A stretch of DNA of 64,000 nucleotides from Candidatus Nomurabacteria bacterium (lineage in GTDB: Bacteria > Patescibacteriota > Minisyncoccia > Phycocordibacterales > UBA9973): contig CAWJHU010000001.1 in the NCBI GenBank assembly GCA_963842815.1, positions 179,020 through 243,019 of the forward strand. The letters run 5' to 3'. The notes under the pieces were generated by a model. That model did no database searches and had not been told where the DNA came from. It saw only the letters and a list, made by a program, of their open reading frames with translations. Position 1 is the stretch's first letter; each line of letters starts with the position of its first letter. The translations under genes were made by a program, and so were the position numbers. Positions 1 to 55,133 of the stretch are shown piece after piece.

Positions 1-1293
1 GTTGGGGGTCAGACCCGATAAATTAAATTTAATGTTTCCATAGAGATTGGAATAATCATTCATATCAAAATTCTGTTCACTTCCCGGAACCAGAGTCCAA
101 AATGGCACCGAACCCCCGTAGTTTGAAAGTTCTTGATATTCAAAATAAGTTTCAACTGATTTGTTTGTTGTTCCGTCCGTATTTACGTTCGGAGAACAGT
201 AATAACCGTTTAAAACAGCGGAATCAGAGCCTATGGTCGTAGCGGGATTTGTTTGTACTGTCGTATCGTAGCAATTGGTACGAAAACTTTTTACTATACT
301 GCTTCCGCCATAGGCTATATTCAGTGAATTTGAAATTATGGCGCAATAATAATATGTAGTGTTCGGGCTCAAGCCGGTTATTTTTGTGGAGAAAGGTTGT
401 GAAGATGTGGCCCCCAGTGATGCTCCATTATCGTCTGTTTTTATATCTCCCGTTGCCATCATATTCGTGCCATAAATATCATTGCAGTAAATCGGTGAAA
501 TTTTTGCCTTGGAATATCTGAAATATGCTGTGAGCGGAAGTGTTGATGTTGACGAATCAACATAACCTCCAATACCATGCAGAACTGCTGTGGTTTGAGT
601 AATGTCTTTAGCGTCTGAGGTGGAGACAGAAATTTCCGTATCGCACGTGCCGGTTGCGGGGTTGTAAACTTTTGGATAGGGACAAGCTACCGAATTGACG
701 CATTTATTGGCAAATGAATTGTAAATCTGTGAAGAAGGACAGCTTGGCGGAGTAATGCAAGCATTAACCGCAGAACTATAAACCTGTGGAGAGGTGCAAG
801 CCAACGGAAGAACACAAGTATTAACAGCAGGACTATAGACTTTTGGAGAAGCGCAGACCAGAGGAGTAACACAAGTACCGGTTGCAGAACTATATACCTC
901 CGGAGAAGGACAGGAAATATCAATGGATGCTGTGGCTACCGCCCAATCGTTTTCACCAAGACCATTAAAACAATAAATTTTAAAAGTCATCGGAGAAGTT
1001 ATAGAGGGGACAGCTTCGCTTTTTGATGTTGGGGGTGGTGAAATGTTGCCGAAAGAACCACTTATAAAACCATTGGGCAATTCCGACGAAAGAGTACAAA
1101 CCGTAATCGGGTTTGTGTCAGTTAATGACCATGCCAAGGTGGAAGAGCCTTTGTAGGGTACAGATGTTGGGTTGGCGGAAAAAGTTATAGTCGGGGGTGT
1201 TGCCGAAACATTCTGCGCGAAAAATATTCCCATTGCCAGAATAAATATTGCTACCCCGTATGAAATCTTTTCTGTTTTTTTTATGTTCGTCAT
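1..1293 (-). CDS. Secreted cysteine-repeat / Fn3-like surface protein, N-terminal portion (C-terminus runs past window start)
   Basis: ATG at 1293..1291 on the minus strand, then signal peptide MTNIKKTEKISYGVAIFILAMGIFFAQNVSA. My translation of the segments I checked is open to position 1. It shows tandem ~18-aa CxSPxVYSxAxxxC repeats (CPSPEVYSSATGTCVTP / CASPKVYSPAVNTCVLP / CTSPQVYSSAVNACITP / CPSSQIYNSFANKCV) and Fn3-like segments (LSPNTTYYYC...SFRT). It is absent from the ORF track because it is truncated by the window edge. Confidence 0.55.
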   Translation of the reverse strand, partial: MTNIKKTEKISYGVAIFILAMGIFFAQNVSATPPTITFSANPTSVPYKGSSTLAWSLTDTNPITVCTLSSELPNGFISGSFGNISPPPTSKSEAVPSITSPMTFKIYCFNGLGENDWAVATASIDISCPSPEVYSSATGTCVTPLVCASPKVYSPAVNTCVLPLACTSPQVYSSAVNACITPPSCPSSQIYNSFANKCVNSVACPYPKVYNPATGTCDTEISVSTSDAKDITQTTAVLHGIGGYVDSSTSTLPLTAYFRYSKAKISPIYCNDIYGTNMMATGDIKTDDNGASLGATSSQPFSTKITGLSPNTTYYYCAIISNSLNIAYGGSSIVKSFRTNCYDTTVQTNPATTIGSDSAVLNGYYCSPNVNTDGTTNKSVETYFEYQELSNYGGSVPFWTLVPGSEQNFDMNDYSNLYGNIKFNLSGLTPN

Positions 1294-16776: not shown

Positions 16777-16796
16777 TTTTTTGCTATACTTAATCT

Positions 16797-39603: not shown

Positions 39604-39665
39604 AAATACAAACCAAACCCGTAAGTTTGGTTTTTTATTTTTCTTTTATGATAAAATATAAAAAT

Positions 39666-41256: not shown

Positions 41257-41282
41257 GAAGACATCTAGAATTACAGTGCCCG

Positions 41283-41316
41283 ACCTTACAAAGGTTTGGG
41301 CATTTTTTTTTATTTA
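41283..41316. terminator. Bidirectional terminator hairpin GCCCGACC...GGTTTGGGC + T-run
   Basis: Between convergent genes. Confidence 0.55.
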
Positions 41317-41326
41317 ATAACTAAAT

Positions 41327-41896: not shown

Positions 41897-42098
41897 GCGG
41901 AATATTATATCATATATAAAAACAAAACTGCCCTTGTCTTGCGACAGTGGCAGTGAGCTTAGTGATAGTAGTATATCACAGGTAGCAAGAAAAAGTCAAG
42001 TTATAATACAAAAAAATAATTTTGTCAATTTTTTCGTAAATCTCGGCAGAGAAGACAAAAAATAAACAAATATTTAGCAATTTTCAAATCTTCCCACT

Positions 42099-42270
42099 AA
42101 AATAAGGCTAAAATAGGGGCTGGGGATAAAGGGGGCTAAAGGGCTTGACATTTGGGTTGATTAGGTGTATTATAATACACAGATAAAGGTTTGTCAATTT
42201 TCTTCGAAAAATAAAACAGCTTTGGCGGATATCCCGCACAAGGCATCACATTTAACTTATAGGAGGCGTT
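42099..42270 (+). promoter_or_regulatory. Repeated promoter + leader module, copy 2
   Basis: See copy 1. Confidence 0.75.
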
Positions 42271-43152
42271 ATGAAAACGCTCGTAAATATATTTGTTCTT
42301 TTAATAGTTGTTTCTTTGTCTGCTTTATCTCAGCAGAAGATTCAAACTGAGAATGGATGGAATTTCGCTGGAGCTTATGGTTACCTGGATTCTACTCAGA
42401 CTAGGTCCTACGAAACCTCTACAGGCAGTCAAGTATTTAAGTCTTATGGAGAAACGGGAGGGGACTTGGTTTTCCAAACAACTTGGTCTAAAGATTTTAA
42501 GAATTTATTAATGCCTGATACAATTTCCATAGATTTGGAATTTCTAAAAGGAGTTAATAATAGGAAAACCACTTGTATTTTCCTGGCGGTGCAAGAATCA
42601 CCCATTGGACTTTATTATTTTCTTGGAAAGTATCAACCAGTTTCCTCTAGTGGAGAATGGCAAAGGTTCTCTTGGGATATGTCTCTAGCGAAGATTTACA
42701 ACATGAAATCACTTTACCGAGTCTATCTCATTCTTGCTACAGAAACAGCAGATTCCATCACTTACACTGGAATGGAAGTAGAGTTAAAAAACTTGATTGG
42801 TATTGATAGTCTGGGAGTAAAGACTTACATCGACCTTGGTGCTATTGCCACCGGAGTCGATGGAGTTTCTGAAGTAAAACAAGTTCCTTCTGGATTTGTT
42901 TTGGAACAAAACTATCCTAACCCTTTCAATCCTGATACAAGGATTTCTTACTCACTGAAAAATGCAGGAAAAGTTCATCTTTCTGTATTTAACATGTTGG
43001 GTCAAGAAGTTGCAGTTCTAGTGAATGGCACTCAAAACATAGGAGCTCATGAGGCCACGTTTAATGCCTCAAACTTACCAAGTGGTGTTTACTTGTGTAG
43101 GCTTGCGGTTGATAACAATGTCATTACAAAAAAGATGCTTTTGCTAAAATAA
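42271..43152 (+). CDS. Secreted protein with Por-type CTD-like tail, cassette paralog 2 (divergent N-terminal domain)
   Basis: Signal peptide MKTLVNIFVLLIVVSLSALSQ. CTD LEQNYPNPFNPDTRISYSL...VFNMLGQEVAVLV...FNASNLPSGVYLCRL...KKMLLLK. Confidence 0.75.
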   Translation: MKTLVNIFVLLIVVSLSALSQQKIQTENGWNFAGAYGYLDSTQTRSYETSTGSQVFKSYGETGGDLVFQTTWSKDFKNLLMPDTISIDLEFLKGVNNRKTTCIFLAVQESPIGLYYFLGKYQPVSSSGEWQRFSWDMSLAKIYNMKSLYRVYLILATETADSITYTGMEVELKNLIGIDSLGVKTYIDLGAIATGVDGVSEVKQVPSGFVLEQNYPNPFNPDTRISYSLKNAGKVHLSVFNMLGQEVAVLVNGTQNIGAHEATFNASNLPSGVYLCRLAVDNNVITKKMLLLK

Positions 43153-43221
43153 TATTTAAATACTAAACATAAACCAAACCTGCAAGTTTGGTTTTTTATT
43201 TTTCCGTGATAAAATTTATAA

Positions 43222-43737
43222 ATGAATAAAGAAAATAATCTTGCTTTTATTGATGGACAAAATTTACACATAGGAATAATGCAAAATGATTGGAAGATTG
43301 ACCATAATAAATTTAGAATATATTTAAAAGATAAGTATCATGTATCAGAAGCTTATTATGTTTTAGGCTTTATTTCAGAAAAAGAACAAGATTTATATAA
43401 CAATCTTCAAAAGGCAGGGTTTATAGTTATATTTAAAGAACACAATCCTAAGCTTTTAGCTAAGAAAAAAGGAAATGTGGACACCGACATTGTTTTTGAA
43501 GCAATGAAAAATCTTATTGATAACAAAAATTTTGATAAAATAGTTTTGGTTTCTGGCGATGGAGATTATAAAAAATTAGTTGATTACTTAATTACAAAAA
43601 ATAAATTTAAAAAAATACTTTTTCCAATCAAGAAGTTCGCGTCATCTTTATACGATGATCTGGGTTCAGAATTTTTTGATTATTTAGAAAACCTTAAAAC
43701 ATACATAGAATGGCATAAAAAAGAAAAGGGCTCCTAA
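43222..43737 (+). CDS. NYN-domain (LabA-like) protein, paralog 3
   Basis: LAFIDGQNL ... VDTDIVFEAM ... LVSGDGDY. Confidence 0.65.
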   Translation: MNKENNLAFIDGQNLHIGIMQNDWKIDHNKFRIYLKDKYHVSEAYYVLGFISEKEQDLYNNLQKAGFIVIFKEHNPKLLAKKKGNVDTDIVFEAMKNLIDNKNFDKIVLVSGDGDYKKLVDYLITKNKFKKILFPIKKFASSLYDDLGSEFFDYLENLKTYIEWHKKEKGS

Positions 43738-43862
43738 GGCACAAACACCTTTCGGATCCCTTTTCGTATAAATATGCCTTGATTGTATCATGTATCTCGC
43801 ATCTATGCAAGGGATTTTGTCTATTTTATAGGACTTTTGCTCCTTAAGCCAATATCCCCCAC

Positions 43863-44046
43863 AAAATAAGGCTAAAAAGGGGGTTGTGGATAGATTGGGG
43901 ATAACTTAGGCTAAGGGGACTTGACATTTGGGTTGATTAGGTGTATCATAATACACAGATAAAGGTTTGTCAATTTTCTTCGAAAAATAAAACAGCTTTG
44001 GCGGATATCCCGCACAAGGCATCACATTTAACTTATAGGAGGCGTT
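43863..44046 (+). promoter_or_regulatory. Repeated promoter + leader module, copy 3
   Basis: See copy 1. Confidence 0.75.
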
Positions 44047-44955
44047 ATGAAAACGTCATTAAGTATATTAGTTCTTTTGGTAATTTTTGCAGTCGTATTC
44101 TTTACTTCTGCTTTCTCGCAACAACAGATTCAAAACAATGTAGTTAGCGGTAATTGGGGTTTCAATGGTGGGTATTATAATAACCTTGATGCCCAATATA
44201 CTAAATTTTTCCGGGACGCCGATGGCGGAGCTGAATTTTGGATGTCTGGCGGAACGGTTTCATTTTCGCCTACAACAATGGGTACAGACATGTGGTTTTT
44301 GGGGACTTTTTCTTCTCCATGGCTTCTCGGCGATTCGCTTTCCCTTGAAGTTCAACTTCAATGGAAAGCAGGCGATATCAAACGAGTTTCTGTCCACATA
44401 GGTCTTACGGATACATCCATAGGCTCATATTACCCGGGGGAATACAAAATAATTACCTTAGATTCATCCAGGCAAAGACTTTCTTGGGATATGTCTGAAA
44501 TAAAAAAAGCAGGATGGCGGTCAATATCCCAAATGGATTTGGCCTTTAAGGCAAATACAGTGGATTCTTGCAATGTAGTGTTGCGAATGAGAGGAATGAA
44601 TATGGTTTCCACTGACAGTCTCAGTAGAAAAACCGATATTGCTTTTAATCTCATTTCCACCGGAGTCAAAGAAGTTTCTGCTCAAACTCCAAAAGGGTTT
44701 GCTCTGGAACAGAATTATCCCAATCCTTTTAATCCTTCAACGACTATAAGATTCTCTGTTCCCCAAACGGAACAGGTGAGTTTGAAAGTTTATAATTCAT
44801 TAGGGCAAGAAGTTCAAACCCTGGTGAATGAAGTGAAAGGAAAAGGAAATTATGAAGCGACGTTTAATGCTTCTAACTTGCCTTCCGGAACATATTTCTA
44901 CAGACTCCAAGCAGGAGTCAATGTAGAAACAAAGAAAATGATGTTAGTAAAGTAA
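44047..44955 (+). CDS. Secreted protein with Por-type CTD-like tail, cassette paralog 3 (N-terminal ~230 aa near-identical to paralog 1; CTD of a different subtype)
   Basis: Mosaic structure. The body equals paralog 1 and the tail is LEQNYPNPFNPSTTIRFSV...VYNSLGQEVQTLV...[16 protein letters not shown]...KKMMLVK. Confidence 0.75.
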   Translation: MKTSLSILVLLVIFAVVFFTSAFSQQQIQNNVVSGNWGFNGGYYNNLDAQYTKFFRDADGGAEFWMSGGTVSFSPTTMGTDMWFLGTFSSPWLLGDSLSLEVQLQWKAGDIKRVSVHIGLTDTSIGSYYPGEYKIITLDSSRQRLSWDMSEIKKAGWRSISQMDLAFKANTVDSCNVVLRMRGMNMVSTDSLSRKTDIAFNLISTGVKEVSAQTPKGFALEQNYPNPFNPSTTIRFSVPQTEQVSLKVYNSLGQEVQTLVNEVKGKGNYEATFNASNLPSGTYFYRLQAGVNVETKKMMLVK

Positions 44956-44961
44956 AATTTA

Positions 44962-45000
44962 GGGTCTGGAACAATTTATTGTTTCGGACCCTTTTTCGTT
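44962..45000 (+). terminator. Rho-independent terminator GGGTCTGGAACAA...TTGTTTCGGACCC + TTTTT
   Basis: Hairpin + U-tract after the cassette 3 stop. Confidence 0.6.
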
Positions 45001-45054: not shown

Positions 45055-47040
45055 ATGTATTTACTAATTAAAACTAGTTTTAAAAATATGCATACATATA
45101 AAAAATTTTTAATAATCTTTATTTTTACATTTGGAATATTATTGGCGCGGAATGCCTCAGCTACTGCTCCGGATGCTTTTATTTCCGCCGGTTCTTCTGG
45201 CACTGGAACAAATGTCCAAATAACTATCCCGAGCGGGAGTAGAACCACAATCTCTTGGGGGACAAACAATGGAACTAACTGCGCTGCTGATGACACGGAC
45301 CATTCATCTCCCGAAGCGATTAGTTTATATAATGCTTTTTCTGCGGTAGTAGGAAATTTGTGGGCCGGGTCTTATTTAACACCTTATTTGACTAGCACCG
45401 CTTACTATAGTGTGCATTGTTACAATTATTATAATGAAAAAAGTGCCATAGTAACAGCTACGATTTTAATTGGCACAAATGGTTCTTGTTCGTCAACTCC
45501 CTATGGTTGTTCTGCGGGGACAAGTGCTAATAATGCGGAGAGTACCACTTCTTGGACTTGGACTTGCGTCGGTTTGGGCGCGGGAACGAATGCTTCTTGT
45601 TCACAAACAAAACCCACTGGCACCCTAACTGCTGCTAATTGTACAATCCCTGATGGCTCAAATAGTTGCAATTCAACAGTTAATTGGACACAAACCCCCA
45701 ATATAGCTTCTTTTGCTACTATTTATGCTGAATCTCCAAACTGGACTGGTCTTACTTCACTCTCTGTTCCTCCTCCTTCTTCCCCAGATGGAAGTTCAGG
45801 TTCTTTTTCAGCTTCTATCCCATATAATTATGAAAAATTTTATCTTTATGCCCTTAATGGTAGTACTATTCTTTCTACAACTACTGTTACGGCCAATTGT
45901 GCCTCAGCTTCTTCTTGGAGTACCAGTAGCAATACCTGCGTGCCCAAACCCGTCCTAGCTCTTTCAGCTTATCCCGCCACTGTTTATCTCCCAGTAGGGG
46001 CACTCGCGCAATCGGCATCAACAATAACAACAACAGCTGGGAGTAGTGTTACCGGCATTAATTATGCGCAACCTATGACAGACTCTGACAATGGTAAATG
46101 CCTTTTGACTACAAAGTTGCTTGATAGGAGCGATGGGAACAAAGACCTTTCCATTGATACAACTAAGGCAACAAACAGTGACTGTAAGCCTGGATACGTA
46201 AATGTAACCGCAACAGGAAATAATGGAGCAGTTTCTAGTTCAACAACCGTAACTGTCAACATAATGTCCGGCACACTCACACCAAATAATTCATATTGCA
46301 CTATTTCCGAAGGGAAAAGCAGTTGCAATGTGGGCCTGACTTGGAAGGTGACGAATCCCACGGTTCCCGGTCCAATTTCTGCCGTCACTTCTTCCATAAA
46401 AGACGATGGGACCGCTAATAACAATACTCCTGTTTATTACAATGATGATGCGGACAGTAGGTCAGTTGTTGTTCCATACAGCAATACTCTTAAGCCGGAT
46501 GTTCATGGCAGAGATTTTTATCTTTATAACAATGGCTATCCTCTTGCCCAGACTTCTGTTACGGCTAGTTGTGTCTCGGGTCTCAACTGGGACGGAAGCA
46601 AGTGTGCCTTGTCTGTTCCAGTCCTTCCCATTCCCGCTTCTCCTTCCATTGACGCTACCACCGGAGCCTGTGGAGGAAAAATCAATTTGGTTTGGGAGGC
46701 TGTCTCTGGAGCGGCCAGCTACAATGTATATCGCGACAACTTAAGTACTAAATTGGCCGCCGCCGGAAACAGCGCGCATGATTCGTCAAATCCATATGTT
46801 GATACCGGACTTGCGCTCGGCTCCAACCATACCTATGGCATTTCCGCTTCAAATACGAGCGGAACTTCTGCTGTGTCTTGGACTAACAACGGTATTATGG
46901 CTTCAGGCGCTTGCACTCAATTATCCGGAACGCTTTCCGCGGATTCTCCTTCTTCACCGTTGAATTCTCTTCTTTGCATCATTCCCACCGGACAGAGCAG
47001 TTGTTCCGTGAACCTAAGCTGGGACACTGAATTCCCTTAA
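45055..47040 (+). CDS. Large secreted surface protein (661 aa) built from repeated 4-Cys modules and Ig/Fn3-like segments; adjacent to T4P genes
   Basis: Signal peptide ...FLIIFIFTFGILLARNASA. Module GSCSSTPYGCSAGTSANNAESTTSWTWTCVGLGAGTNASCSQTKP. Many C-x-I-P / S-S-C-N motifs. Confidence 0.65.
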   Translation: MYLLIKTSFKNMHTYKKFLIIFIFTFGILLARNASATAPDAFISAGSSGTGTNVQITIPSGSRTTISWGTNNGTNCAADDTDHSSPEAISLYNAFSAVVGNLWAGSYLTPYLTSTAYYSVHCYNYYNEKSAIVTATILIGTNGSCSSTPYGCSAGTSANNAESTTSWTWTCVGLGAGTNASCSQTKPTGTLTAANCTIPDGSNSCNSTVNWTQTPNIASFATIYAESPNWTGLTSLSVPPPSSPDGSSGSFSASIPYNYEKFYLYALNGSTILSTTTVTANCASASSWSTSSNTCVPKPVLALSAYPATVYLPVGALAQSASTITTTAGSSVTGINYAQPMTDSDNGKCLLTTKLLDRSDGNKDLSIDTTKATNSDCKPGYVNVTATGNNGAVSSSTTVTVNIMSGTLTPNNSYCTISEGKSSCNVGLTWKVTNPTVPGPISAVTSSIKDDGTANNNTPVYYNDDADSRSVVVPYSNTLKPDVHGRDFYLYNNGYPLAQTSVTASCVSGLNWDGSKCALSVPVLPIPASPSIDATTGACGGKINLVWEAVSGAASYNVYRDNLSTKLAAAGNSAHDSSNPYVDTGLALGSNHTYGISASNTSGTSAVSWTNNGIMASGACTQLSGTLSADSPSSPLNSLLCIIPTGQSSCSVNLSWDTEFP

Positions 47041-47073
47041 AGTATCTATCCTATTAATTTTTTAAAATTACAA

Positions 47074-48648
47074 ATGATTAATAAAATAAAAAAACAAAAT
47101 ATGAATAAAAAATTTTTAGCGATATTTATTTTTGCGGTCGGAATTCTTTTTGCCAATAACGCTTTGGCAACTAACGGCGCCTGTGGTCCGGCTAATGGAA
47201 CGAACTCCTGCCTTGCCCCTACCAGCTATCTTTGTTCTGCCGGGACAGCTTCAGCAGTTTCCGGAAATGGTTCCTCATGGACTTGGGTTTGCACGGGTAA
47301 TAACTATGGAACCAATGCGTCGTGTTCAGCAAATGTAGTATGTCCAGTCAACGGCACTTGCTCATCCCCGGCTACTCACTATACTTGCGCTGCAGGCACA
47401 AGCACCAGTAATGCGGAAACTTCCAGTTCTTATACCTGGTCCTGCCAGAGTTCCAACGGTGGAACCACTGTATCCTGTACGGAAAGCAAACCGGCAGTCA
47501 ATGGCGCTTGCGGTTCGGCCAACGGACAAAGTTTTTCTTCTACTCCGTCTTCAAATCTTTGCAGTGCGGGTACAGCAACCGGCGTGACAAGCGGAACTAA
47601 TTGGACTTGGTCTTGCCAGGGTTCCAATTATGGAACCAATGCGTCCTGTACGGCGTACAAAACTACTTCCGCCATTACCAGCTCTATTACCGATGCCGGA
47701 GCTGTTTCCACTATTTCTACCAAAACAGTCTACACTGGAAATTCGGGTACCAGCAAATCAGTTGTTATCCCGTATATCAATAGTAATGATACTACCCATA
47801 GCCGAACATTTTATCTTTATAATAATTCCATTCTTCTCAATCAAAAAACTATCACGGCAAGCTGTAGTTCAACTGATTATTGGGATACTGTTTCCAAAAC
47901 ATGCCAGCCAAATACCAATAATAACGGATCCTGTTCAGCCACTCATTATAATTGTATTAAGGGGACAAGCGCTAATAACATAGAAGGAACTGACGCCTAC
48001 ACTTGGATTTGCGAAGGCGGTTCTGGCGGAACTGATGCGTATTGTTCCGAAAACAAAACCGCTCCTTCCGGCACGCTGTCCGTTACTTCCTGCACTATTC
48101 CAAATAACGCATCCACTTGCTCTGCAAAAGTTTCCTGGACCACCGCCAATTTAATTTCTGGCGCCGCCACGGCGGTAACCAGAGACAATCCCGCGAACAC
48201 TACTGTTTCTTCAGCAACCTCCGGCACCAATGTAAGCAATACTGTTAATTATGGGACGAGTAATTTTTACCTTTATCATAATGGAACAGAACTTGCTCAA
48301 GCCACCATTACCGCAAACTGTGTTTCAGGCAATTGGAATAACAGCAGCGGAAAATGCGTAGTTGCTTCTCCTCTTTCTCCGACTGCCGGCATTTTAGTCA
48401 GTCCTTCATCCATAGCCTCGGGCGGAAGCGCAACCGTTACTTGGACTTCAAGCAATACAAACTCTTGCACGGGTACCGGCTTTGATACGGGCGGAGCCAC
48501 TTCCGGCAGTGTTACGGTTAGTCCAACGGCAACCACCACCTATTCAATCGTTTGCGACAATGGAACAGTTCAGGCGTCCGATCAGGCGACGATAACCATA
48601 ACGGGGACAGGCACAGGGACTAAAAAACCGGGATATAAAGAAAATTAA
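47074..48648 (+). CDS. Secreted surface protein (524 aa) with at least 4 tandem ~50-aa 4-Cys modules (CxAGT...WTWxC...NASC) and C-terminal Ig-like domain
   Basis: Signal peptide MNKKFLAIFIFAVGILFANNALA. Repeats spelled out in the translation. Confidence 0.65.
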   Translation: MINKIKKQNMNKKFLAIFIFAVGILFANNALATNGACGPANGTNSCLAPTSYLCSAGTASAVSGNGSSWTWVCTGNNYGTNASCSANVVCPVNGTCSSPATHYTCAAGTSTSNAETSSSYTWSCQSSNGGTTVSCTESKPAVNGACGSANGQSFSSTPSSNLCSAGTATGVTSGTNWTWSCQGSNYGTNASCTAYKTTSAITSSITDAGAVSTISTKTVYTGNSGTSKSVVIPYINSNDTTHSRTFYLYNNSILLNQKTITASCSSTDYWDTVSKTCQPNTNNNGSCSATHYNCIKGTSANNIEGTDAYTWICEGGSGGTDAYCSENKTAPSGTLSVTSCTIPNNASTCSAKVSWTTANLISGAATAVTRDNPANTTVSSATSGTNVSNTVNYGTSNFYLYHNGTELAQATITANCVSGNWNNSSGKCVVASPLSPTAGILVSPSSIASGGSATVTWTSSNTNSCTGTGFDTGGATSGSVTVSPTATTTYSIVCDNGTVQASDQATITITGTGTGTKKPGYKEN

Positions 48649-48711
48649 ATTATTAATTAATAATTGGCAAAAAAATCTCCCATTTGGGGGATTTTTTGCT
48701 ATAATATTAAT

Positions 48712-50460
48712 ATGCAGATTGATAAAGAGCAGTTGAAAAAAGTTATTTTGGAATCGGGAATTATCTCACGCTCCGAACTGGATGAAGCAATTGAAAAAGC
48801 CGAAGCAAAAAAACAAAAGCTCAGCAATATTTTGTTGTCCGACGGAAAAATATCCGAAACCGATTTGAAGCGGATGGAAGCTTTTGTTTTGGAGATACCT
48901 TTTGTCAATTTAGTTAATAAAAAAATAGATTATGCCACCCTTTCTCTTATCCCCGAGCCCATTGCCAGGAATCACAATATTATTGCCTATAAAAAAAGCG
49001 AAACGGGATTGGAAGTGGCCATGCTGGATGTTGATGATTTGCCCATAATTGATTTTATCAAAAAACGCGCGGAAGAAAAAATTTTACCCCGATTGACTGA
49101 TGCAGATTCCATCAAGTTTGCCCTTACCCAGTACAGAAAAAGTTTGCAAGCGGATTTTGACAGTATTATTAAAAAAGAATCCGCTTCGCTTAAAACCGAT
49201 TCCAAAAACGAACCCGAAAAAACGGCGGAAGAATTGAAGGCCCTGGCGGAAGATTTGCCGGTCATTAAAATAGTGGATTCTTTGATTTCCCATGCCATTT
49301 TACAAAATACTTCCGACATTCATATTGAACCCGGAGAAAATGACTTGACCATAAGATACAGAATAGACGGCATCTTGCATGATGCCATGATTTTGGATAA
49401 AAGCGCCGCGCCCGGCATAACCACCCGCATAAAAGTGCTGGCCAATTTGAAACTGGATGAAAAAAGATTGCCCCAGGACGGCAGATTTAAAATAGAACAG
49501 AACGGAGAAAGAGTTTCTTTCCGTGTTTCCACCTTGCCCACTTTTTACGGCGAAAAAACTGTGGTCAGAATTCTGAAAGAAAACGCCCACGGCTTTTCTC
49601 TGGAGACGCTCGGTTTCCACGGCGAAGGATTGGAGCGAATTCATGATTCTTTGAAACAGAGAATCGGCATGGTACTGGCCACCGGGCCCACCGGAAGCGG
49701 AAAAACAACCACTCTTTATACCATGCTGGAAATTTTAAACAGGCCGGAAGTAAATATTTCTACAGTGGAAGACCCCATTGAATATCAAATGCCCAGAGTG
49801 AATCAAACCCAGGTAAAACCGGAAATTGGTCTCACTTTTGCCAATGGACTTCGCTCTCTTCTACGCCAGGACCCGGACATAATCATGGTTGGAGAAATTC
49901 GTGATGGCGAGACGGCTGGGTTGGCGGTAAATGCCTCGCTTACCGGGCATCTTGTTTTGTCCACCATCCATACCAACTCCGCTTCCGGAGCAATTCCGAG
50001 ATTGATAGATATGGGTGTTCTGCCGTTTTTGATAATTTCAACGGTGAAGACCATTATTGCCCAAAGATTGGTGCGAAGGCTTGTATCCAGCAAAGAAAAA
50101 TATTTCTTGTCGGCGGATGAGCTGAAAAATCTGGCAAAACTTGTTGACCTGGACCGAATGCTTCTGATGCTGAAGAATGAAAAAATTATCGGACCGGAAG
50201 ATACCTGGAAAACGGTCCCTTTCTATAAGCCGGTAAAAAATAACGAGTCTCCGGACGGCTATTCGGACCGCATCGGCATTCATGAAGTGCTGAAAGTGAC
50301 GGCTTCCATAAAGGAAATGATTATCCGCGGAAGTTCCCAGGATGAAATAGAAGTTCAGGCGAAAAAAGAGGGGATGATGACCATTTTGGAAGACGGAATT
50401 TTCCAATCGGTTTTAGGGAATACAAGTTTGGAGGAAGTGTTCAGGGTAGTTTCGGAGTAG
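48712..50460 (+). CDS. pilB: Type IV pilus assembly ATPase PilB (GspE family)
   Basis: T2SSE N-terminal domain, Walker A GPTGSGKTTTLY, Asp box, His box. ATG 48712 chosen (MQIDKEQ...). Confidence 0.85.
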   Translation: MQIDKEQLKKVILESGIISRSELDEAIEKAEAKKQKLSNILLSDGKISETDLKRMEAFVLEIPFVNLVNKKIDYATLSLIPEPIARNHNIIAYKKSETGLEVAMLDVDDLPIIDFIKKRAEEKILPRLTDADSIKFALTQYRKSLQADFDSIIKKESASLKTDSKNEPEKTAEELKALAEDLPVIKIVDSLISHAILQNTSDIHIEPGENDLTIRYRIDGILHDAMILDKSAAPGITTRIKVLANLKLDEKRLPQDGRFKIEQNGERVSFRVSTLPTFYGEKTVVRILKENAHGFSLETLGFHGEGLERIHDSLKQRIGMVLATGPTGSGKTTTLYTMLEILNRPEVNISTVEDPIEYQMPRVNQTQVKPEIGLTFANGLRSLLRQDPDIIMVGEIRDGETAGLAVNASLTGHLVLSTIHTNSASGAIPRLIDMGVLPFLIISTVKTIIAQRLVRRLVSSKEKYFLSADELKNLAKLVDLDRMLLMLKNEKIIGPEDTWKTVPFYKPVKNNESPDGYSDRIGIHEVLKVTASIKEMIIRGSSQDEIEVQAKKEGMMTILEDGIFQSVLGNTSLEEVFRVVSE

Positions 50461-50480
50461 CTTCGGAAATTTGAAACAAT

Positions 50481-51698
50481 ATGTTATTTTTATATAAAGC
50501 AAAATCAAAAAGCGGAGAAATTTTTGAAGGAACGATGGAATCAACGGACCGTTTTTCTCTTTCCCGGGAATTGAAATCCCGAGGAAATATTCCCATTTCC
50601 ATAACGGAGAAAAAAGACAATGCTTTTGATTTTTCAAAAATATGGGGGCGGTTTTTTTTAAAAGTAAAAATTGAGGAGCAAATTATTTTCACTAAAAATT
50701 TAAGCGGGATGCTCCGGGCCGGACTTTCTCTCTACAGAGCCTTGTCCGTTTTGAAAAAACAAACGAAAAATAAAGAATTCAACAAAGTTTTAACTTCGCT
50801 TTCCAATGAAATAAATGCCGGCGGGACGCTTTCTTCGGGGTTGGAAAAATTTCCGGATGTTTTTTCAAAACTTTTCGTTTCCATGTCCCGGGCCGGCGAG
50901 GAATCCGGCAATCTTTCCGATGCGCTTTCGGAAGTCGGTTCCAATTTGGAAAAAGCGCATTCGCTCACCAAAAAAATAAAAGGAGCGCTCATTTATCCGG
51001 GAGTAATTCTTTCGGCCATGGTTCTGATAGGGGTTTTGATGTTCGCCTTTGTGGTGCCCACCCTGGCCGGCACCTTTAAAGAACTCGGAGTGGACCTGCC
51101 GGCCTCCACGAAATTCATAATTTTCCTGGGAAACTTTTTTTCCCAATATTTAATTTTATCCTTTGCTCTCATTATCGGGTCTGTTCTGGGAATAGTTTCA
51201 CTTTTGCGGGCCGATTTTATGACTAAATATGTTGATTTTATAATTATCAGACTACCCATTGTGGGGAAAATATCCAAAGAATTGAACACTGCCCGCACCA
51301 CCCGCACCATGTCTTCGCTCTTGCTGTCCGGTGTTTCCATTACTCGGGCCATAGAAATAACCGGAGATGTGGTGCAAAATATTTATTATAAAAAAGTTTT
51401 ACAGCAAGCCAAAGAAGAAATAGAAAAAGGGGCGCCCTTTTCCAAAGCTTTTGAAGAACATCCGAATCTTTTTCCCATAATGATGACGGAGATGATTCAG
51501 GTGGGAGAAGAAACCGGGAAATTGTCGGACATGCTGGTTCAGGTTGCTTCTTTTTATGAGGAGGAAATAGAAAATAAAACCAAAAATCTTTCCATAGTTA
51601 TTGAACCGGTGCTGATGATTTTTATCGGCGCCGCTGTGGGCTTTTTCGCCATCTCCATGATTTCGCCTTTGTACTCGGTGATGGACAATATAAAATAA
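50481..51698 (+). CDS. pilC: Type IV pilus assembly platform protein PilC (GspF family)
   Basis: Two T2SS-F repeats, 3 TM helices, 405 aa. Confidence 0.8.
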   Translation: MLFLYKAKSKSGEIFEGTMESTDRFSLSRELKSRGNIPISITEKKDNAFDFSKIWGRFFLKVKIEEQIIFTKNLSGMLRAGLSLYRALSVLKKQTKNKEFNKVLTSLSNEINAGGTLSSGLEKFPDVFSKLFVSMSRAGEESGNLSDALSEVGSNLEKAHSLTKKIKGALIYPGVILSAMVLIGVLMFAFVVPTLAGTFKELGVDLPASTKFIIFLGNFFSQYLILSFALIIGSVLGIVSLLRADFMTKYVDFIIIRLPIVGKISKELNTARTTRTMSSLLLSGVSITRAIEITGDVVQNIYYKKVLQQAKEEIEKGAPFSKAFEEHPNLFPIMMTEMIQVGEETGKLSDMLVQVASFYEEEIENKTKNLSIVIEPVLMIFIGAAVGFFAISMISPLYSVMDNIK

Positions 51699-51741
51699 TT
51701 TCCCGCCTGCATTAGCTATGCTAAAAGCATTGCGGACAGGT

Positions 51742-53172
51742 TTAATTTTTCACTTCCTGCCAGGAGAGGATTTGATAGTTATCGGAAGTCAGAGGGAAAC
51801 TCGGCGGAGGAGCGTAAAGCATATTGGCATCATAGGAAATATTTCTGGTTGTATAACCGGTTCCATCTGTGTAGGCAAAGCCATATCTGTCGTGGGAAGC
51901 AATCATTCCATAAAGAGAAATAGTGGAACGATTTTGATAAACGCAGTTGTCTCCCGAATAATAAGGTCTTCCCACCTGGTCGTTCTGGGCGATGAGAGCA
52001 GCGTCTATTTTTAAATTATTATCACTTGCCATTCCCACTAGCACTCCTCCTTGTCCGATTAATCCTATGGAATCCGTGCCGTCATAATTGCTGTAGGAAA
52101 GGTCATCATTCACTATAATATTTTTAAATTTTGACATGTCCGTAGGCACCGGCAAATCGGCAGCGGTGATTGTCAGACGGGCGCCATTTATTTGGCCGTC
52201 AACCACCACATGGTCCTCTATAAAAATTATTCCATTGGGAGGGAAAGCATAATTTCCCTGAAGTGTTTGCGTGCCGACGCTCCAGCTTACACTTGTTCCG
52301 GAACAATTTCCCAAATTGGCCCAGGAATTTATTTTGTATAAATCAAAAGTGCCGTCTGTTTTTAAAACTATATGATAGCCGACATATCCGGTTCCGGCTA
52401 CGTCTCTGTAAAATCCGCTTGACTGGGCGCTGGATTTCAGGGTGGCCAAATCCGTGGTAAAACCCGAGAAATCAATAGTAGGCTGGCTTATTAAACGTCC
52501 AGCTTGAAAAACATCCGTCCGGGAAGGCAAAGTTGCCGGGGGAGATGGGTCGGCCGGCGAGATGCAAGTATGAACGCCGTAGGAATTTCCGGTGCAAGCA
52601 TCGCTATCGGTATCCGTATAACTGGTTACACCGCTGGTAATAATATTATGAGCCAATCCGTCAAAACGAATGCCTCCATTTGAACTGATAGGTCCGAAAA
52701 TTTCCGTACCCTGGCCGAAGCGCATATTGGAATTTCCAGCAAAAGCGTATTTGGCGATGGATGGCTTGGCCACTTTGCTTTCTATTTTTCTTAAGGCCGA
52801 AGAGTCTGCCAAAGTAAGGCCGGTGGATTTTATTTTAACTAAAGTTGACCCGGTGGTTGGAGCCGTGATGTCCAGGGAAAATTGTCCGATAGTCGTTCCA
52901 TTTTTATCTTTCATCAAATGCACATAGAGTCCCGCTATTCCTGTTCCATCTTTGAAATCCGTCGGAGCATGGGCTAAATGCCAGCGATAATAATCTATTC
53001 CGGCTTCGGCTGTTTGGAAGGATTGTTCCCGATAAAAAGTTTCTCGTCCGCTTTTTATGGAGATGGCTGCCCAGCCGGCCAGGGCCGCAATTATGCAGAT
53101 GGCCACCGCGCCGAAAACCAGCACATAGATTATGAGAATTCCCTTATTTTTTTGGCTGTTTCTTTTCTTCAT
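51742..53172 (-). CDS. Large pilin-like / pilus-associated protein with N-terminal hydrophobic anchor (476 aa)
   Basis: N-terminal KNKGILIIYVLVFGAVAICIIAALA. Co-oriented with two prepilin genes. Confidence 0.45.
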   Translation of the reverse strand: MKKRNSQKNKGILIIYVLVFGAVAICIIAALAGWAAISIKSGRETFYREQSFQTAEAGIDYYRWHLAHAPTDFKDGTGIAGLYVHLMKDKNGTTIGQFSLDITAPTTGSTLVKIKSTGLTLADSSALRKIESKVAKPSIAKYAFAGNSNMRFGQGTEIFGPISSNGGIRFDGLAHNIITSGVTSYTDTDSDACTGNSYGVHTCISPADPSPPATLPSRTDVFQAGRLISQPTIDFSGFTTDLATLKSSAQSSGFYRDVAGTGYVGYHIVLKTDGTFDLYKINSWANLGNCSGTSVSWSVGTQTLQGNYAFPPNGIIFIEDHVVVDGQINGARLTITAADLPVPTDMSKFKNIIVNDDLSYSNYDGTDSIGLIGQGGVLVGMASDNNLKIDAALIAQNDQVGRPYYSGDNCVYQNRSTISLYGMIASHDRYGFAYTDGTGYTTRNISYDANMLYAPPPSFPLTSDNYQILSWQEVKN

Positions 53173-53789
53173 AAATTATCTTTCAAATTTCTTATGGAAA
53201 CCTGGGTGGTCATGGTTTCCGGCGAAGGCGGTTTGTTGGGGTCTTTATCTGTGACAATTGTTATTTTTATAAGGCGAACAACCGGGATGTTTATCGGAGA
53301 AGAAAGAGGAGAAGTATTCCCGTCGTAATTTTCATCGTAGTAATTAAAAATTGCGCTGTTGGTAACATAGGGAACAATGACGCTTATAATTTCATTGGAA
53401 GAATTATAGGAGAGTGGACTGCCGGTTGGTTTTACCACTCCTTTCTTGAGAGAGCCGTTATCAAGAAAATATCTTACCCTTTCTCTTAGCCCATCGTTGT
53501 TTATGTCCGAATAAAAAGAAAAGGTTGTGGCGTTTGCTTGATTGATGGTATAAGCTCCGGTGTCGGCCGGTCCGGCTGTTCGTATTTCCGCTGTCATTGT
53601 TTTCAGAGCCGTTCTCCCGGCGTCAATATCTCCCAAACCATTTGAAATAAATGTACTATATTGAAAAATATTTTTTGCAAAAAGAGTAGCTGCGATCATC
53701 ACCAATATTAAAATTGAAATGGAAAAAAGAATTTCAATAAGGGTAAACCCGAAATTTTTTCTTATTTTATTTTTTTTATCAGTTTTCAT
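53169..53789 (-). CDS. Type IV prepilin-like protein (N-terminal cleavage/methylation motif GFTLIEIL)
   Basis: KNFGFTLIEILFSISILILVMIAA is a class III signal peptide. Confidence 0.8.
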   Translation of the reverse strand: MKTDKKNKIRKNFGFTLIEILFSISILILVMIAATLFAKNIFQYSTFISNGLGDIDAGRTALKTMTAEIRTAGPADTGAYTINQANATTFSFYSDINNDGLRERVRYFLDNGSLKKGVVKPTGSPLSYNSSNEIISVIVPYVTNSAIFNYYDENYDGNTSPLSSPINIPVVRLIKITIVTDKDPNKPPSPETMTTQVSIRNLKDNL

Positions 53790-53792
53790 AAT

Positions 53793-55133
53793 TTATTGGG
53801 GCGTCAGGGTTATGCTTTTTTGTTGCCAGCCCGGAGAAGAAGAGGAAAGACTGATGGAACTGGTGGAAGTTTGATAGCCTGTTTTTGAAACAGTCAGGGT
53901 ATAATTTCCCGTGCCCAGCCCGTTCCAAAATGCTTGGCCCGGAGCCGAACATCCCGTGGAAGAGGTAGTTTTGGTTTGGTCAAAACCGGATTTTTGCAGG
54001 CGAATAGTTGTTCCATCGGCTATGGCTGCCCCGGTGGAAGTTTTTACGGAAACCAAAAGCGCTCTGTTTGAATGTGCCACCGTCATAAATTGAACTGATT
54101 TATTTTCACCCGGATTAATAGGAAACGAACTGACGGGCATCGTTCCGGCTACATCATAGGTGCTTCCGGAAGGGGAAATTGAATAGGAATCCCATTCCAA
54201 ATTGGGAATAGTTTTTTGGCCCGTGCTATCCGTGGTAAATGTTTGAGAATATTTTAATACCGAAGGCGTGCCTATTAATTTTGCTCCCGATAGGGTAAAT
54301 GGAATACTTGGCAAGACAAGGCAAGTATTATCCACGCTTGAAACATTTAAAGAACCAAGAGTGTCTATGGCAAAAGTAATTTGAGTAACTTGCCTGGTTG
54401 CGACGGTTGAATCCGGCTTGACCGGACTTGAACCGGCTACTCCGCCAACCGGATATGTTTGATCTTGAGAATATCCAGATTTTGTTACCGTAATATTGTA
54501 AGCTTTCGTTCCCGGAATAGCGTCAATTATTTTTAGCCATCCGTCATTGTCCGTTATTTCATCTATTATGGTATCCGGATTTGTATTGGTGTTCACAATG
54601 TGAACGGAAGCCTGTGGAACCGGAGCCCCTGCGGCATTAAAAGCTCTGATAAACAATGCTCCGTTGCTGGAAACGCTTTCAAGGGCGCGCGGAGCAACCA
54701 AAGTTGTAAAATTTAACATTGAAGAATATTTGCAATTTGAACAGGAAATATCCAAGTCCACCATTTTATAGTCAGCCGGGGAAAGGTCGTTCGGGGTTCC
54801 GCCGAGAGTTCCGTCAAAGGGGTCGTCAATGCTTCTGATGGACGTTAAAATGGTAAAAGAATAATTGTCTCTTGTAATGTTTTCGGTTCTGGCGATTTTT
54901 CCGGCTGGCAATCCGCCCAGAATCCCCACGTCGTCGTAGGATAAATTGCGGATAATTTCAAATTTTTCATTGGCGATGGAGGTGGCGACAATTTTTGCCC
55001 GAGATACCGAGACGCCGTCCATCAGCACTCCGAAAGATTTAAAGGCAGCCAGCGCCACCAGAAGAAATACCGCAGTGCCCACCAGGGTTTCAACCAAAGT
55101 AAACCCTCTTTTTTGTTTTTTAGAAAAATTCAT
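53793..55133 (-). CDS. Large type IV prepilin-like (minor pilin / pseudopilin) protein (446 aa)
   Basis: KRGFTLVETLVGTAVFLLVALAAF prepilin motif. Confidence 0.75.
   Translation of the reverse strand: MNFSKKQKRGFTLVETLVGTAVFLLVALAAFKSFGVLMDGVSVSRAKIVATSIANEKFEIIRNLSYDDVGILGGLPAGKIARTENITRDNYSFTILTSIRSIDDPFDGTLGGTPNDLSPADYKMVDLDISCSNCKYSSMLNFTTLVAPRALESVSSNGALFIRAFNAAGAPVPQASVHIVNTNTNPDTIIDEITDNDGWLKIIDAIPGTKAYNITVTKSGYSQDQTYPVGGVAGSSPVKPDSTVATRQVTQITFAIDTLGSLNVSSVDNTCLVLPSIPFTLSGAKLIGTPSVLKYSQTFTTDSTGQKTIPNLEWDSYSISPSGSTYDVAGTMPVSSFPINPGENKSVQFMTVAHSNRALLVSVKTSTGAAIADGTTIRLQKSGFDQTKTTSSTGCSAPGQAFWNGLGTGNYTLTVSKTGYQTSTSSISLSSSSPGWQQKSITLTPQ

What the first reader, a model, noticed from the sequence alone, without database searches (positions are those of the whole stretch)
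45055..55133. Type IV pilus locus flanked by giant modular Cys-repeat surface proteins
pilB and pilC are followed on the opposite strand by three prepilin-like genes (GFTLIE-class N-termini; 206, 446 and 476 aa). They are preceded by two secreted proteins (661 and 524 aa) made of tandem ~50-aa modules, each with 4 conserved Cys and a W-T-W core (C..AGT.....SWTWxC.G.NYGTNASC). I do not recognise this module. The partial gene at 1..1293 carries a related Cys-repeat/Fn3 theme. They are candidates for pilus-associated adhesins mediating host or particle attachment in an episymbiont-like organism.
Basis: partly seen in the sequence, partly recalled or inferred. Interest (0 to 1): 0.55.

Follow-up and report, generated by a model that had tools for sequence, protein, structure and literature searches.

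The report
Variable secreted repeat proteins beside pilus genes
A tiny-celled (Nomurabacteria-like) bacterium carries an ordinary type IV pilus gene cassette, and next to its motor gene sit two secreted, disulfide-rich "beads-on-a-string" proteins built partly from a widespread but unannotated 50-residue module; whether they work with the pilus is plausible but not shown.

Summary
The genes are real. pilB and pilC are confirmed. Of the three opposite-strand genes, two are true prepilins and the 476-aa one lacks the GFTLIE signature. This is a conserved Paceibacteria cassette (pilB-pilC-446-206-476-tpiA-pgk). The pilin block is inverted here, as in Ca. Nomurabacteria GW2011_GWC2_35_3.

The two upstream proteins are not giant (661 and 524 aa) and not mainly W-T-W modules. 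Protein A has one copy and B has four. The rest is ~100-aa Ig-like modules.

The W-T-W module (M1) is a real family:
- About 5,970 cluster representatives, up to 45 copies per protein.
- No Pfam, NCBIfam or PDB match.

M1 is combined with many unrelated domains and is mostly not pilus-linked. It was absent from 80 pilB loci.

What is conserved is a position and a tail. In nine related loci the gene directly 5' of pilB encodes a fast-diverging secreted modular protein ending in [KR][KR]Px[FY]xE[NDQ] (B: KKPGYKEN). A conserved terminator plus a separate pilB promoter divides the two genes. Tail-bearing proteins also occur away from pili.

Verdict: variable surface proteins. A pilus association is possible but unproven.

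The parts
44961..44992 (+). Terminator-like hairpin (14-bp stem plus T-run) closing the preceding T9SS-tail gene. It marks the upstream boundary of the A/B unit.
   Evidence: sequence
45055..47040 (+). Protein A (661 aa; an independent gene call starts at 45088, giving 650 aa). It is Sec-exported and modular. It has no C-terminal tail and ends inside a truncated M2 module.
45478..45615 (+). The single M1 (W-T-W, 4-Cys) module of A, aa 142-187
   Evidence: E 1.2e-21
45616..45951 (+). M2 Ig-like module, copy 1 of A (aa 188-299)
   Evidence: E 2.3e-42
46267..46617 (+). M2 Ig-like module, copy 2 of A (aa 405-521)
   Evidence: E 1.5e-43
46924..47037 (+). Truncated third M2 module at the C-terminus of A (aa 624-661). 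It is cut off by the AT-rich region upstream of B.
47074..48648 (+). Protein B (524 aa; an independent gene call starts at 47101, giving 515 aa = P0001). It is Sec-exported and modular, and is the pilB-proximal 'slot' protein.
47173..47664 (+). Three tandem M1 modules of B (aa 34-89, 93-140, 143-197)
   Evidence: E 6e-21, 8e-23, 5e-19
47665..47916 (+). Degenerate M2 module of B (aa ~198-281). It lacks the first Cys pair.
   Evidence: E 2.3e-26
47923..48060 (+). Fourth M1 module of B (aa 284-329, short-loop form)
   Evidence: E 1.7e-23
48067..48369 (+). Complete M2 Ig-like module of B (aa 332-432). This copy was modelled at pLDDT 96.7.
48370..48618 (+). C-terminal Ig-like domain of B (SW.S...SC...TTTY.I.C pattern)
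48619..48645 (+). Extreme C-terminal tail TKKPGYKEN, of the class [KR][KR]Px[FY]xE[NDQ]-COOH
48668..48698 (+). Conserved A-tract/GC-stem/T-tract hairpin between B and pilB; terminator-like
   Evidence: -17.6 kcal/mol, z -4.1; conserved in 6 loci
48697..48705 (+). Extended -10-like element TGCTATAAT, 6 nt before the pilB ATG at 48712
   Evidence: consensus match; not tested experimentally
48712..50460 (+). pilB, the T4P extension ATPase. The ORF is open from 48664; relatives align from about residue 9-17.
50481..51698 (+). pilC, the T4P platform protein
51742..53172 (-). 476-aa large pilin-like protein and third gene of the conserved block. It has an N-terminal hydrophobic helix without the GFxxxE signature. 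Its C-terminus ...SWQEVKN is conserved.
53169..53789 (-). 206-aa minor prepilin (GFTLIE)
53793..55133 (-). 446-aa modular prepilin (GFTLVE) carrying CarboxypepD_reg / prealbumin-like domains

Best explanation
A and B are Sec-exported proteins with no membrane anchor. They are disulfide-stapled 'beads-on-a-string' proteins of a Nomurabacteria-like (Paceibacteria) organism. They occupy the variable slot between nusA and a conserved type IV pilus cassette.

Shown:
- The modules are M1, a 46-56-aa all-beta unit with four invariant Cys and an invariant Trp, and M2, a ~100-aa Ig/FnIII-like sandwich.
- The two modules are shuffled rapidly between close relatives.
- B, the pilB-proximal protein, ends in a conserved C-terminal tail.

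Inferred:
- After signal-peptidase-I cleavage the chains fold outside the cell with two disulfides per M1, probably C1-C2 and C3-C4.
- They form an extended stalk and act as variable surface-binding or fibril proteins.
- M1 and M2 are structural spacers, not the ligand-binding part.
- The tail [KR][KR]Px[FY]xE[NDQ] is the element that retains or displays the protein at the surface.

The pilus genes next door are an ordinary CPR T4P core cassette. It has its own promoter and its own candidate tip proteins: the 446-aa modular pilin and the 476-aa protein. A functional tie between B and the pilus is possible, but the only direct evidence for it is adjacency conserved within one clade.
For: Nature of the proteins:
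- Signal peptides and the lack of any C-terminal hydrophobic anchor can be read from the sequences.
- S+T+N+G make up about 44-52% of residues, and there are 20 and 26 Cys.

Modules:
- M1 model: pLDDT 94.7, all-beta. C4, C21, W37, C39 and C50 are invariant in 91 copies.
- M1 arrays of up to 45 copies are combined with CARDB, PKD, cellulase, RCC1, Hint, RHS and pilin N-termini. That behaviour fits a stalk module.
- A thioredoxin-like gene and a DsbB gene sit next to pilB in relative L013, so extracytoplasmic disulfide formation exists in this group.

Fast divergence:
- pilB is 89% identical in L095, but the slot protein is only 38% identical over 293 aa and has no M1.

Tail:
- It is present on the slot protein in the window, L095, L091, L010, L011, L012, L092, the P0062 contig and, as an EEF variant, L022.
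- It follows different domain types.
- Only 9 of 1,902 ORFs of >=150 aa in all loci held at that point (these include duplicate copies of the same locus) match the tail pattern, and 6 of those are slot proteins.

Separate transcription:
- The hairpin plus TGnTATAAT upstream of pilB is conserved in 6 loci.
Against: - There is no experimental or structural evidence for surface retention, binding, or any role of the tail.
- The disulfide pairing is inferred from loop-length variation, not read from coordinates.
- A lacks the tail and ends in a truncated module, so it may be decaying.
- The conserved adjacency to pilB in every genome with pilB >=74% identical, and the similar aromatic-x-Glu ending of the large pilin-like protein, argue that the pilus link may be more than positional.
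Confidence: 0.5

Rival explanations
1. Pilus cargo or tip adhesin; this is the first reader's idea, refined. B and its positional equivalents are non-pilin proteins exported by Sec. They dock through the C-terminal [KR][KR]Px[FY]xE[NDQ] peptide onto the minor-pilin tip complex. They are then displayed on, or secreted by, the type IV pilus. Known parallels are CofJ on CofB, TcpF on TcpB, and PilY1 on the minor pilins.
For: - A tail-bearing modular protein sits directly 5' of pilB, co-oriented and 13-110 nt away, in nine loci. pilB identity across them runs from 62 to 89%, while the domain content changes.
- Three of five tail-bearing proteins picked from the homolog list without knowledge of their context turned out to be pilB neighbours.
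- Both families of the large pilin-like last gene end in a conserved ...[ST]W.E.. C-terminus that resembles the tail.
- M1 arrays occur fused to pilin N-termini.
- Precedent exists for terminal-peptide docking on tip pilins (PMC6048534, PMC9565799, PMC10120004) and for non-pilin tip adhesins (PMC7541494).
- Pilus-borne lectin-like domains have been reported in Saccharibacteria (PMC11623550).
Against: - The adjacency is confined to one clade, where the whole neighbourhood is syntenic.
- About 22 other Patescibacteria pilB loci have nusA or other genes in that place.
- A terminator and a separate promoter lie between B and pilB.
- Tail-bearing P0073 and P0083 have no pilus genes within 10 kb.
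- In L009 the tail protein abuts tpiA with no pilus genes between them.
- The resemblance between the two C-terminal motifs covers only three or four residues.
Confidence: 0.25
2. Hotspot passenger. The nusA-pilB interval is a recombination hotspot where accessory genes accumulate. A and B are generic CPR surface proteins with no relation to the pilus, and their tail is a general CPR cell-surface retention signal. This overlaps with the best explanation and differs from it only in denying any pilus tie.
For: - In the window the interval (37.1-48.66 kb) also holds QueC-like, NUDIX, RelA/SpoT-like, PemK toxin and NYN genes, plus three T9SS-tail genes of low GC.
- Other relatives hold unrelated giant proteins there. 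L017 has an NHL propeller protein without the tail, and L022 has a Big_7 protein.
- Tail proteins occur elsewhere in genomes.
Against: The protein immediately next to pilB is tail-bearing in all 8 loci of the clade, despite turnover of everything else in the interval.
Confidence: 0.2
3. Glycan or polymer binding. M1 is a small carbohydrate-binding module, and A and B tether the cell to polysaccharide particles or to host cell walls.
For: - The aromatic W-x-W motif is conserved.
- M1 co-occurs with cellulase (PF00150) and other glycoside-hydrolase-associated domains in some proteins.
Against: - The only invariant Trp is more likely a core residue of a 50-residue domain.
- Copy numbers up to 45 fit a spacer better than a binding module.
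Confidence: 0.05

Closest known systems
Type IV pilus loci of Patescibacteria/CPR (e.g. Nanosynbacter lyticus TM7x T4P-1/T4P-2; PMC11623550)
   Same: - PilB ATPase and PilC platform.
- Several minor pilins, some with large accessory domains (here the 446-aa pilin with prealbumin-like domains).
- Poor conservation of pilins against good conservation of the motor.
   Different: - The window shows only pilB, pilC and three pilin-like genes.
- No major pilin, PilD, PilM/N/O or PilT lies within 64 kb.
- The pilin block is inverted relative to most Paceibacteria.
Non-pilin pilus proteins PilY1/PilC (PMC7541494) and the T4bP-secreted proteins CofJ and TcpF (PMC6048534, PMC9565799, PMC10120004)
   Same: - Sec signal peptide rather than a prepilin signal.
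- Encoded beside pilus genes.
- A variable 'business end' with a short conserved terminal element that could dock on tip pilins.
   Different: - No sequence or domain homology; no Pfam hit, including the PilY1/Neisseria_PilC domain.
- The terminal element is C-terminal here, whereas it is N-terminal in CofJ and TcpF.
- Docking has not been tested.
Modular type IV pilins (Streptococcus sanguinis PilB/PilC; PMC8179133, PMC9934059)
   Same: Extra adhesive or structural modules are grafted onto pilus components. M1 arrays are found on true prepilins elsewhere (P0043, P0044, P0048, P0068), and the window's 446-aa pilin is modular.
   Different: A and B themselves have no class III (prepilin) signal.
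Bacterial Ig-like/PKD/CARDB extender domains of large adhesins; DUF7154 (PF23673)
   Same: - M2 is an Ig/FnIII-like sandwich used in tandem as an extender.
- One M2 protein reaches the DUF7154 threshold (27.1 against 27 bits).
   Different: - A and B do not themselves hit any Pfam model.
- M2 carries two conserved Cys pairs.
C-terminal sorting signals (LPXTG, PEP-CTERM, PGF-CTERM, GlyGly-CTERM, MYXO-CTERM; 10.1101/2023.06.07.544157)
   Same: A short conserved C-terminal motif on secreted surface proteins that is independent of the preceding domain.
   Different: - There is no transmembrane helix and no basic cluster after the motif.
- The motif is the very end of the protein.
- No NCBIfam model matches it.

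Membership tests
Type IV pilus assembly locus | PilB-type extension ATPase (T2SSE) with an N-terminal MshEN domain | tested here: met
   PF00437 E 1.7e-119; PF05157 E 1.4e-9
Type IV pilus assembly locus | PilC/GspF platform protein with two T2SSF domains | tested here: met
   PF00482 E 2.3e-62, 2 stretches
Type IV pilus assembly locus | Pilins with a class III signal (G/FTLxE, N-methylation motif) | tested here: met
   The 446-aa and 206-aa proteins pass PF07963 and TIGR02532. The 476-aa protein does not.
Type IV pilus assembly locus | Major pilin, prepilin peptidase PilD, PilM/N/O, retraction ATPase | tested here: not met
   None was found in the 64-kb window. The motif scan found only two prepilins, and Pfam scans of most ORFs of 150 aa or more showed none. 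The rest of the 337.8-kb contig was not available.
PilY1/PilC-type non-pilin tip adhesin | C-terminal PilY1/Neisseria_PilC beta-propeller domain | tested here: not met
   No Pfam or NCBIfam family at E<=0.1 for A or B
PilY1/PilC-type non-pilin tip adhesin | Physical association with the minor-pilin tip complex | not testable with these tools
   Needs complex modelling or biochemistry
T4P-dependent secreted protein (CofJ/TcpF type) | Encoded with the pilus genes and secreted in a pilus-dependent way through a terminal docking peptide | tested here: inconclusive
   Adjacency holds in nine loci and a conserved terminal tail exists. But the gene is a separate transcription unit, and dependence cannot be tested.
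Modular type IV pilin | Prepilin N-terminus on the module-bearing protein | tested here: not met
   A and B have Sec-type signal peptides and no GFxxxE. The feature is met by the separate 446-aa gene, and by the M1-bearing proteins P0043 and P0068 elsewhere.
Any curated domain family for the W-T-W Cys module (M1) | Significant match to a Pfam, NCBIfam or PDB sequence or fold | tested here: not met
   - No hit for A or B.
- No Pfam hit at E<=10 for three M1 copies of B or a two-copy consensus.
- Profile against PDB: 0 hits at E<=10.
DUF7154 (PF23673) for M2 | Score above the Pfam gathering threshold | tested here: inconclusive
   P0093, with three M2 copies, scores 27.1 against a cut-off of 27. 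The window's M2 copies do not hit.
Sortase/exosortase-type C-terminal sorting signal | Motif followed by a transmembrane helix and a basic tail | tested here: not met
   The tail is the last 8-9 residues and nothing follows it. No NCBIfam CTERM model hits.

The most novel reading that the evidence does not exclude
The extreme C-terminal tail [KR][KR]Px[FYW]xE[NDQF]-COOH is a Patescibacteria-specific signal. Through it, Sec-exported proteins are loaded onto, or secreted by, the type IV pilus. The same aromatic-x-Glu ending on the large pilin-like tip protein would mark a shared docking site. The slot next to pilB would then hold a rapidly shuffled 'cargo adhesin' that sets host or particle specificity of these episymbiont-like cells.
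Probability: 0.17. Interest if true: 0.8.

Novelty: new variant of a known kind. Interest (0 to 1): 0.45.

Why it matters
How ultrasmall CPR bacteria recognise and hold on to hosts is largely unknown, and type IV pili are the main suspects (PMC11623550).

- If the tail-bearing slot proteins are pilus cargo, they would be the variable specificity determinants. The tail would then be a simple sequence handle for listing all such cargo in any CPR genome.
- Independently of that, M1 is a sizeable domain family (about 6,000 cluster representatives) with no match in the Pfam, NCBIfam or PDB copies searched. It has a confident predicted structure and no clear fold relative, so it is worth a domain model and an experimental structure.
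- If neither holds, this is an ordinary CPR pilus cassette next to ordinary hypervariable surface proteins.

Tried and rejected
- **Pfam and NCBIfam on A, B, isolated modules and a consensus dimer:** nothing.
- **M1 and M2 profiles against PDB sequences:** nothing for M1. For M2 only an insignificant antibody-VH resemblance, E 0.09.
- **Site-specific inversion of the pilin block:** no flanking inverted repeats. The same orientation in L095 shows it is a fixed lineage arrangement.
- **A-B-pilB operon:** rejected as a firm claim after finding the conserved hairpin and the TGnTATAAT before pilB.
- **Homolog search with B's C-terminal 92 aa alone:** found nothing. An 8-sequence alignment worked.
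- **PilX_N identity of the 476-aa protein and its counterparts:** no HMM support. It is therefore described only as pilin-like.
- **'Related' Cys theme in the partial gene at 1-1293:** rejected.
- **Chimeric assembly as the explanation for T9SS-tail genes next to CPR genes:** unlikely, since an independent Logan contig reproduces the junction.
- **Literature searches for the module or the tail in CPR:** nothing relevant.
Full report
**What is in the sequence**

- pilB is the ORF at 48664-50460, with a likely start at the ATG at 48712. It scores T2SSE E 1.7e-119 with an MshEN N-domain.
- pilC is 50481-51698 and has two T2SSF domains.
- Genes of 476, 206 and 446 aa follow on the minus strand.
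- Only the 446-aa protein (RGFTLVE) and the 206-aa protein (FGFTLIE) carry the class III signal and pass the N_methyl models.
- The 446-aa pilin also has CarboxypepD_reg and prealbumin-like domains, so it is a modular pilin.
- The 476-aa protein begins KNKGILIIYVL, lacks Glu5 and matches no HMM.
- No other prepilin, and no PilD, PilT or PilM/N/O, was found in the 64-kb window.

**The two upstream proteins**

A (45055-47040) and B (47074-48648) start with paralogous Sec-type signal peptides: KKFLIIFIFTFGILLARNASA|T and KKFLAIFIFAVGILFANNALA|T. Neither has a C-terminal hydrophobic anchor. S+T+N+G make up about 44-52% of residues, with 20 and 26 Cys.

- The W-T-W module (M1) occurs once in A and four times in B.
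- Most of the remaining length is a second, ~100-aa module (M2). Its consensus is SGTL...SCTI..G.SSC...L.W.T.NP...FYLYNN..LA..T.TA.C.SGT.WNGS.C.
- A has two complete M2 copies plus a truncated one at its very end. B has one complete and one degenerate copy.
- B then has an Ig-like domain and ends ...TKKPGYKEN.
- So the description 'made of tandem ~50-aa modules' is only partly right, and neither protein is giant.
- The partial gene at 1-1293 lies on the minus strand. It has a different 18-aa Cys repeat, and neither module HMM matches it.

**The M1 module**

- Ninety-one diverse copies give the consensus NGxCGxANGxxxxxxPxxxLCxxGTASxVxGxGPWxWxCxGxNGGxxASCSA. C4, C21, W37, C39 and C50 are invariant.
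- A profile of them finds 5,970 cluster representatives at E<=1e-3 (3,531 at 1e-10) among 1.84 billion proteins, with up to 45 copies per protein.
- Nothing in Pfam, NCBIfam or PDB sequences matches it, even with a consensus dimer.
- AlphaFold2 with that alignment gives a confident all-beta 55-residue model, pLDDT 94.7.
- The first Cys-Cys loop varies from 6 to 16 residues, and the last two Cys bracket a hairpin. I infer C1-C2 and C3-C4 disulfides; this was not read from coordinates.
- M1 is combined with many unrelated domains: CARDB, PKD, cellulase, RCC1, Hint, RHS, beta-propellers and an archaeal class III signal. In four of 120 hits it follows a bacterial prepilin N-terminus.

**The M2 module**

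**Is the module linked to pili?**

The module itself is not.
- Eighty loci centred on pilB relatives in GTDB species representatives contained no M1 within 10 kb.
- Five M1 proteins on long contigs had no pilB or pilC nearby. They came from a proteobacteria-like contig, an archaeon-like 1.2-Mb contig and two Paceibacteria contigs, among others.

**What is conserved around pilB**

- The same loci define a widespread Paceibacteria cassette: nusA(-) | pilB pilC 446 206 476 tpiA pgk, all on one strand.
- In the window the three pilin genes are inverted and have no flanking inverted repeats.
- The closest public relative is Ca. Nomurabacteria GW2011_GWC2_35_3 (L095). It shares pilB at 89%, pilC at 86% and the 476-aa protein at 75%, and it has the same inversion.
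- Other close relatives carry a different pilin set of about 155, 158, 175 and 420-606 aa. These are L091 (pilB 85%), L010-L012 (75-77%) and L092 (74%). Pilin cassettes are therefore exchanged within the clade.

**The slot next to pilB and the C-terminal tail**

In every locus with pilB >=74% identical, the gene directly 5' of pilB encodes a secreted modular protein. It is co-oriented and lies 13-110 nt away.
- The loci are the window, L095, L091, L010, L011, L012, L092 and the P0062 contig. In that last locus pilB identity to the window could not be measured, because no DNA was returned.
- All of these slot proteins carry M2, some also carry M1, and several have CARDB, beta-helix, TSP1 or InlB-B-repeat domains.
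- All end in the same kind of extreme C-terminal tail: KKPGYKEN, NVPIFKED, KKPIFKED, KKPLFQEQ, KKPSFIEN, EKAGFKEN, KRPFFIEN, KAPGYIED.
- L022 (pilB 62%) has a 1,713-aa Big_7 protein there ending ...IFFEEF.
- Only 9 of 1,902 ORFs of >=150 aa in all loci held at that point (these include duplicate copies of the same locus) match the tail pattern, and 6 of those are slot proteins.
- The tail follows different domain types.
- It is frequent on CPR proteins with the C-terminal Ig-like domain, with consensus KKKPxFIEN. Where the source names the organism, these are Nomurabacteria, Kaiserbacteria or Patescibacteria.
- No NCBIfam sorting-signal model matches, and no transmembrane segment follows the tail.
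- The slot protein diverges fast. Against L095 it is 38% identical over 293 aa and has no M1, while pilB is 89% identical.
- Protein A has no tail.

**Evidence against a functional tie to the pilus**

1. Between the slot gene and pilB there is a conserved element: an A-tract, a GC stem and a T-tract hairpin, then TGnTATAAT, then the ATG 5-9 nt later. In the window the hairpin is at 48668-48698 (-17.6 kcal/mol, z -4.1). The element is conserved in six loci. This reads as a terminator abutting a separate, almost leaderless pilB promoter, so co-transcription is not implied. This rests on consensus matches only.
2. The clade is syntenic over the whole neighbourhood. tpiA-pgk-HIT-recJ is at least as constantly adjacent, so adjacency may simply be inherited.
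3. About 22 other Patescibacteria pilB loci have nusA or unrelated genes in the slot. L017 has an NHL-propeller protein there without the tail.
4. Tail-bearing P0073 and P0083 have no pilus genes within 10 kb. In L009, a close relative, the tail-bearing protein abuts tpiA with no pilus genes between them.
5. In the window the nusA-pilB interval (37.1-48.66 kb) also holds a toxin, NYN genes and three T9SS-tail genes, as a hotspot would.

**Evidence for a tie**

- Three of five tail-bearing proteins chosen from the homolog list without knowledge of their context were pilB neighbours.
- Both families of the large last gene of the pilin block end in a conserved ...[ST]W.E.. C-terminus. Examples are SWQEVKN, SWKEVE and TWIEF, which resemble the tail's [FY]xE[ND].
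- There are known precedents: secreted proteins that dock on tip minor pilins through a short terminal peptide (CofJ-CofB, TcpF-TcpB; PMC6048534, PMC9565799, PMC10120004), and the non-pilin tip adhesin PilY1 (PMC7541494).

**Conclusion**

The pilus cassette is an ordinary CPR type IV pilus core with its own candidate tip proteins. A and B are variable, secreted, disulfide-stabilised modular surface proteins.
- The new lead is the conserved slot and the C-terminal tail.

I put about 0.5 on 'variable surface proteins, pilus tie unproven'. I put about 0.25 on true pilus cargo or adhesin, and about 0.2 on pure hotspot passengers.

Noticed in passing
window 39521-44955: Three paralogous 293-302-aa secreted proteins carry a T9SS type-A sorting domain (TIGR04183, E 1e-13 to 1e-14). 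They lie at 40348-41256, 42271-43152 and 44047-44955. They share 93-96% identical 5' regions, including about 170 nt upstream. A fourth C-terminal-domain remnant is at 39521-39607. They are interleaved with two NYN genes and follow a PemK toxin gene; GC is 0.31-0.35. T9SS is described only in Bacteroidota, so its sorting domain in a Nomurabacteria-like contig is odd. An independent Logan contig reproduces the junction with A, B and pilB.
   Followed up: partly
window 48668-48714; L095 3622-3681; L091 2902-2978; L092 12221-12301; L011 9999-10054; L012 9962-10040: A conserved intergenic element lies before pilB: A-tract/GC-stem/T-tract hairpin, then TGnTATAAT or TATACT, then the ATG 5-9 nt later. 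It suggests a terminator fused to an extended -10 promoter with a nearly leaderless pilB mRNA. A (TATAAT 4 nt before the ATG at 45055) and B (TAAAAT 5 nt before the ATG at 47074) look similar.
   Followed up: partly
window 51742-55133; L095 6676-10052: The three-gene pilin block is inverted relative to the arrangement in about 15 other Paceibacteria loci. There are no flanking inverted repeats. The inversion is shared with Ca. Nomurabacteria GW2011_GWC2_35_3.
   Followed up: yes
L091 6085-9454; L010 13092-15888; L011 13103-16350; L012 13046-16221; L092 16796-20127: Close relatives (pilB 74-85% identical) carry a different minor-pilin cassette between pilC and tpiA: about 155, 158, 175 and 420-606 aa. 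This indicates cassette replacement within the clade.
   Followed up: partly
window 51742-51765 (C-terminus of the 476-aa protein) and its counterparts in L013-L046, L010-L015, L091, L092: Both families of the large last gene of the pilin block end in a conserved C-terminus, ...PPPSFPLTSD.Y..ISW.EV. or ...SGPSGGW.I.SWKEVE. The aromatic-x-Glu ending resembles the tail of the slot proteins.
   Followed up: partly
window 5714-8585, 12113-13569, 19133-21246: Several housekeeping genes appear split by frameshifts: KsgA (5714-6019 / 6016-6471), UvrD (fragments 6574-8585), the CCA-adding enzyme (12113-12700 / 12694-13569) and PNPase (19133-20344 / 20188-21246). These are either pseudogenes or indel errors in the assembly.
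   Followed up: no
window 1-1293 (minus strand): This is the N-terminal part of a secreted protein. It has an Ig-like domain followed by at least six 18-aa repeats of the form C.SP.VY....N.C..P. It is unrelated to M1 and M2.
   Followed up: partly
window 46924-47040: Protein A ends inside an M2 module (...CSVNLSWDTEFP*), directly before the AT-rich region upstream of B. It looks like a truncation caused by insertion or duplication of the B gene start. A, B and the pilB ORF are all in the same reading frame.
   Followed up: partly
L013 9021-9951: A thioredoxin-like gene and a DsbB gene lie directly upstream of pilB in one Paceibacteria relative. Extracytoplasmic disulfide machinery therefore sits next to the pilus genes there.
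   Followed up: no
M2 alignment A2 (window 48067-48369 as first sequence): The M2 profile weakly resembles antibody VH domains (C...W...FYLY.N.L...T....C against C...W...YLQMNSLRAEDTAVYYC; E 0.09). This is probably convergence within the Ig-like fold.
   Followed up: no
window 15520-17303: A tyrosine recombinase (Phage_integrase, E 7e-45) lies next to a third NYN-domain gene. NYN genes recur three times in the window.
   Followed up: no
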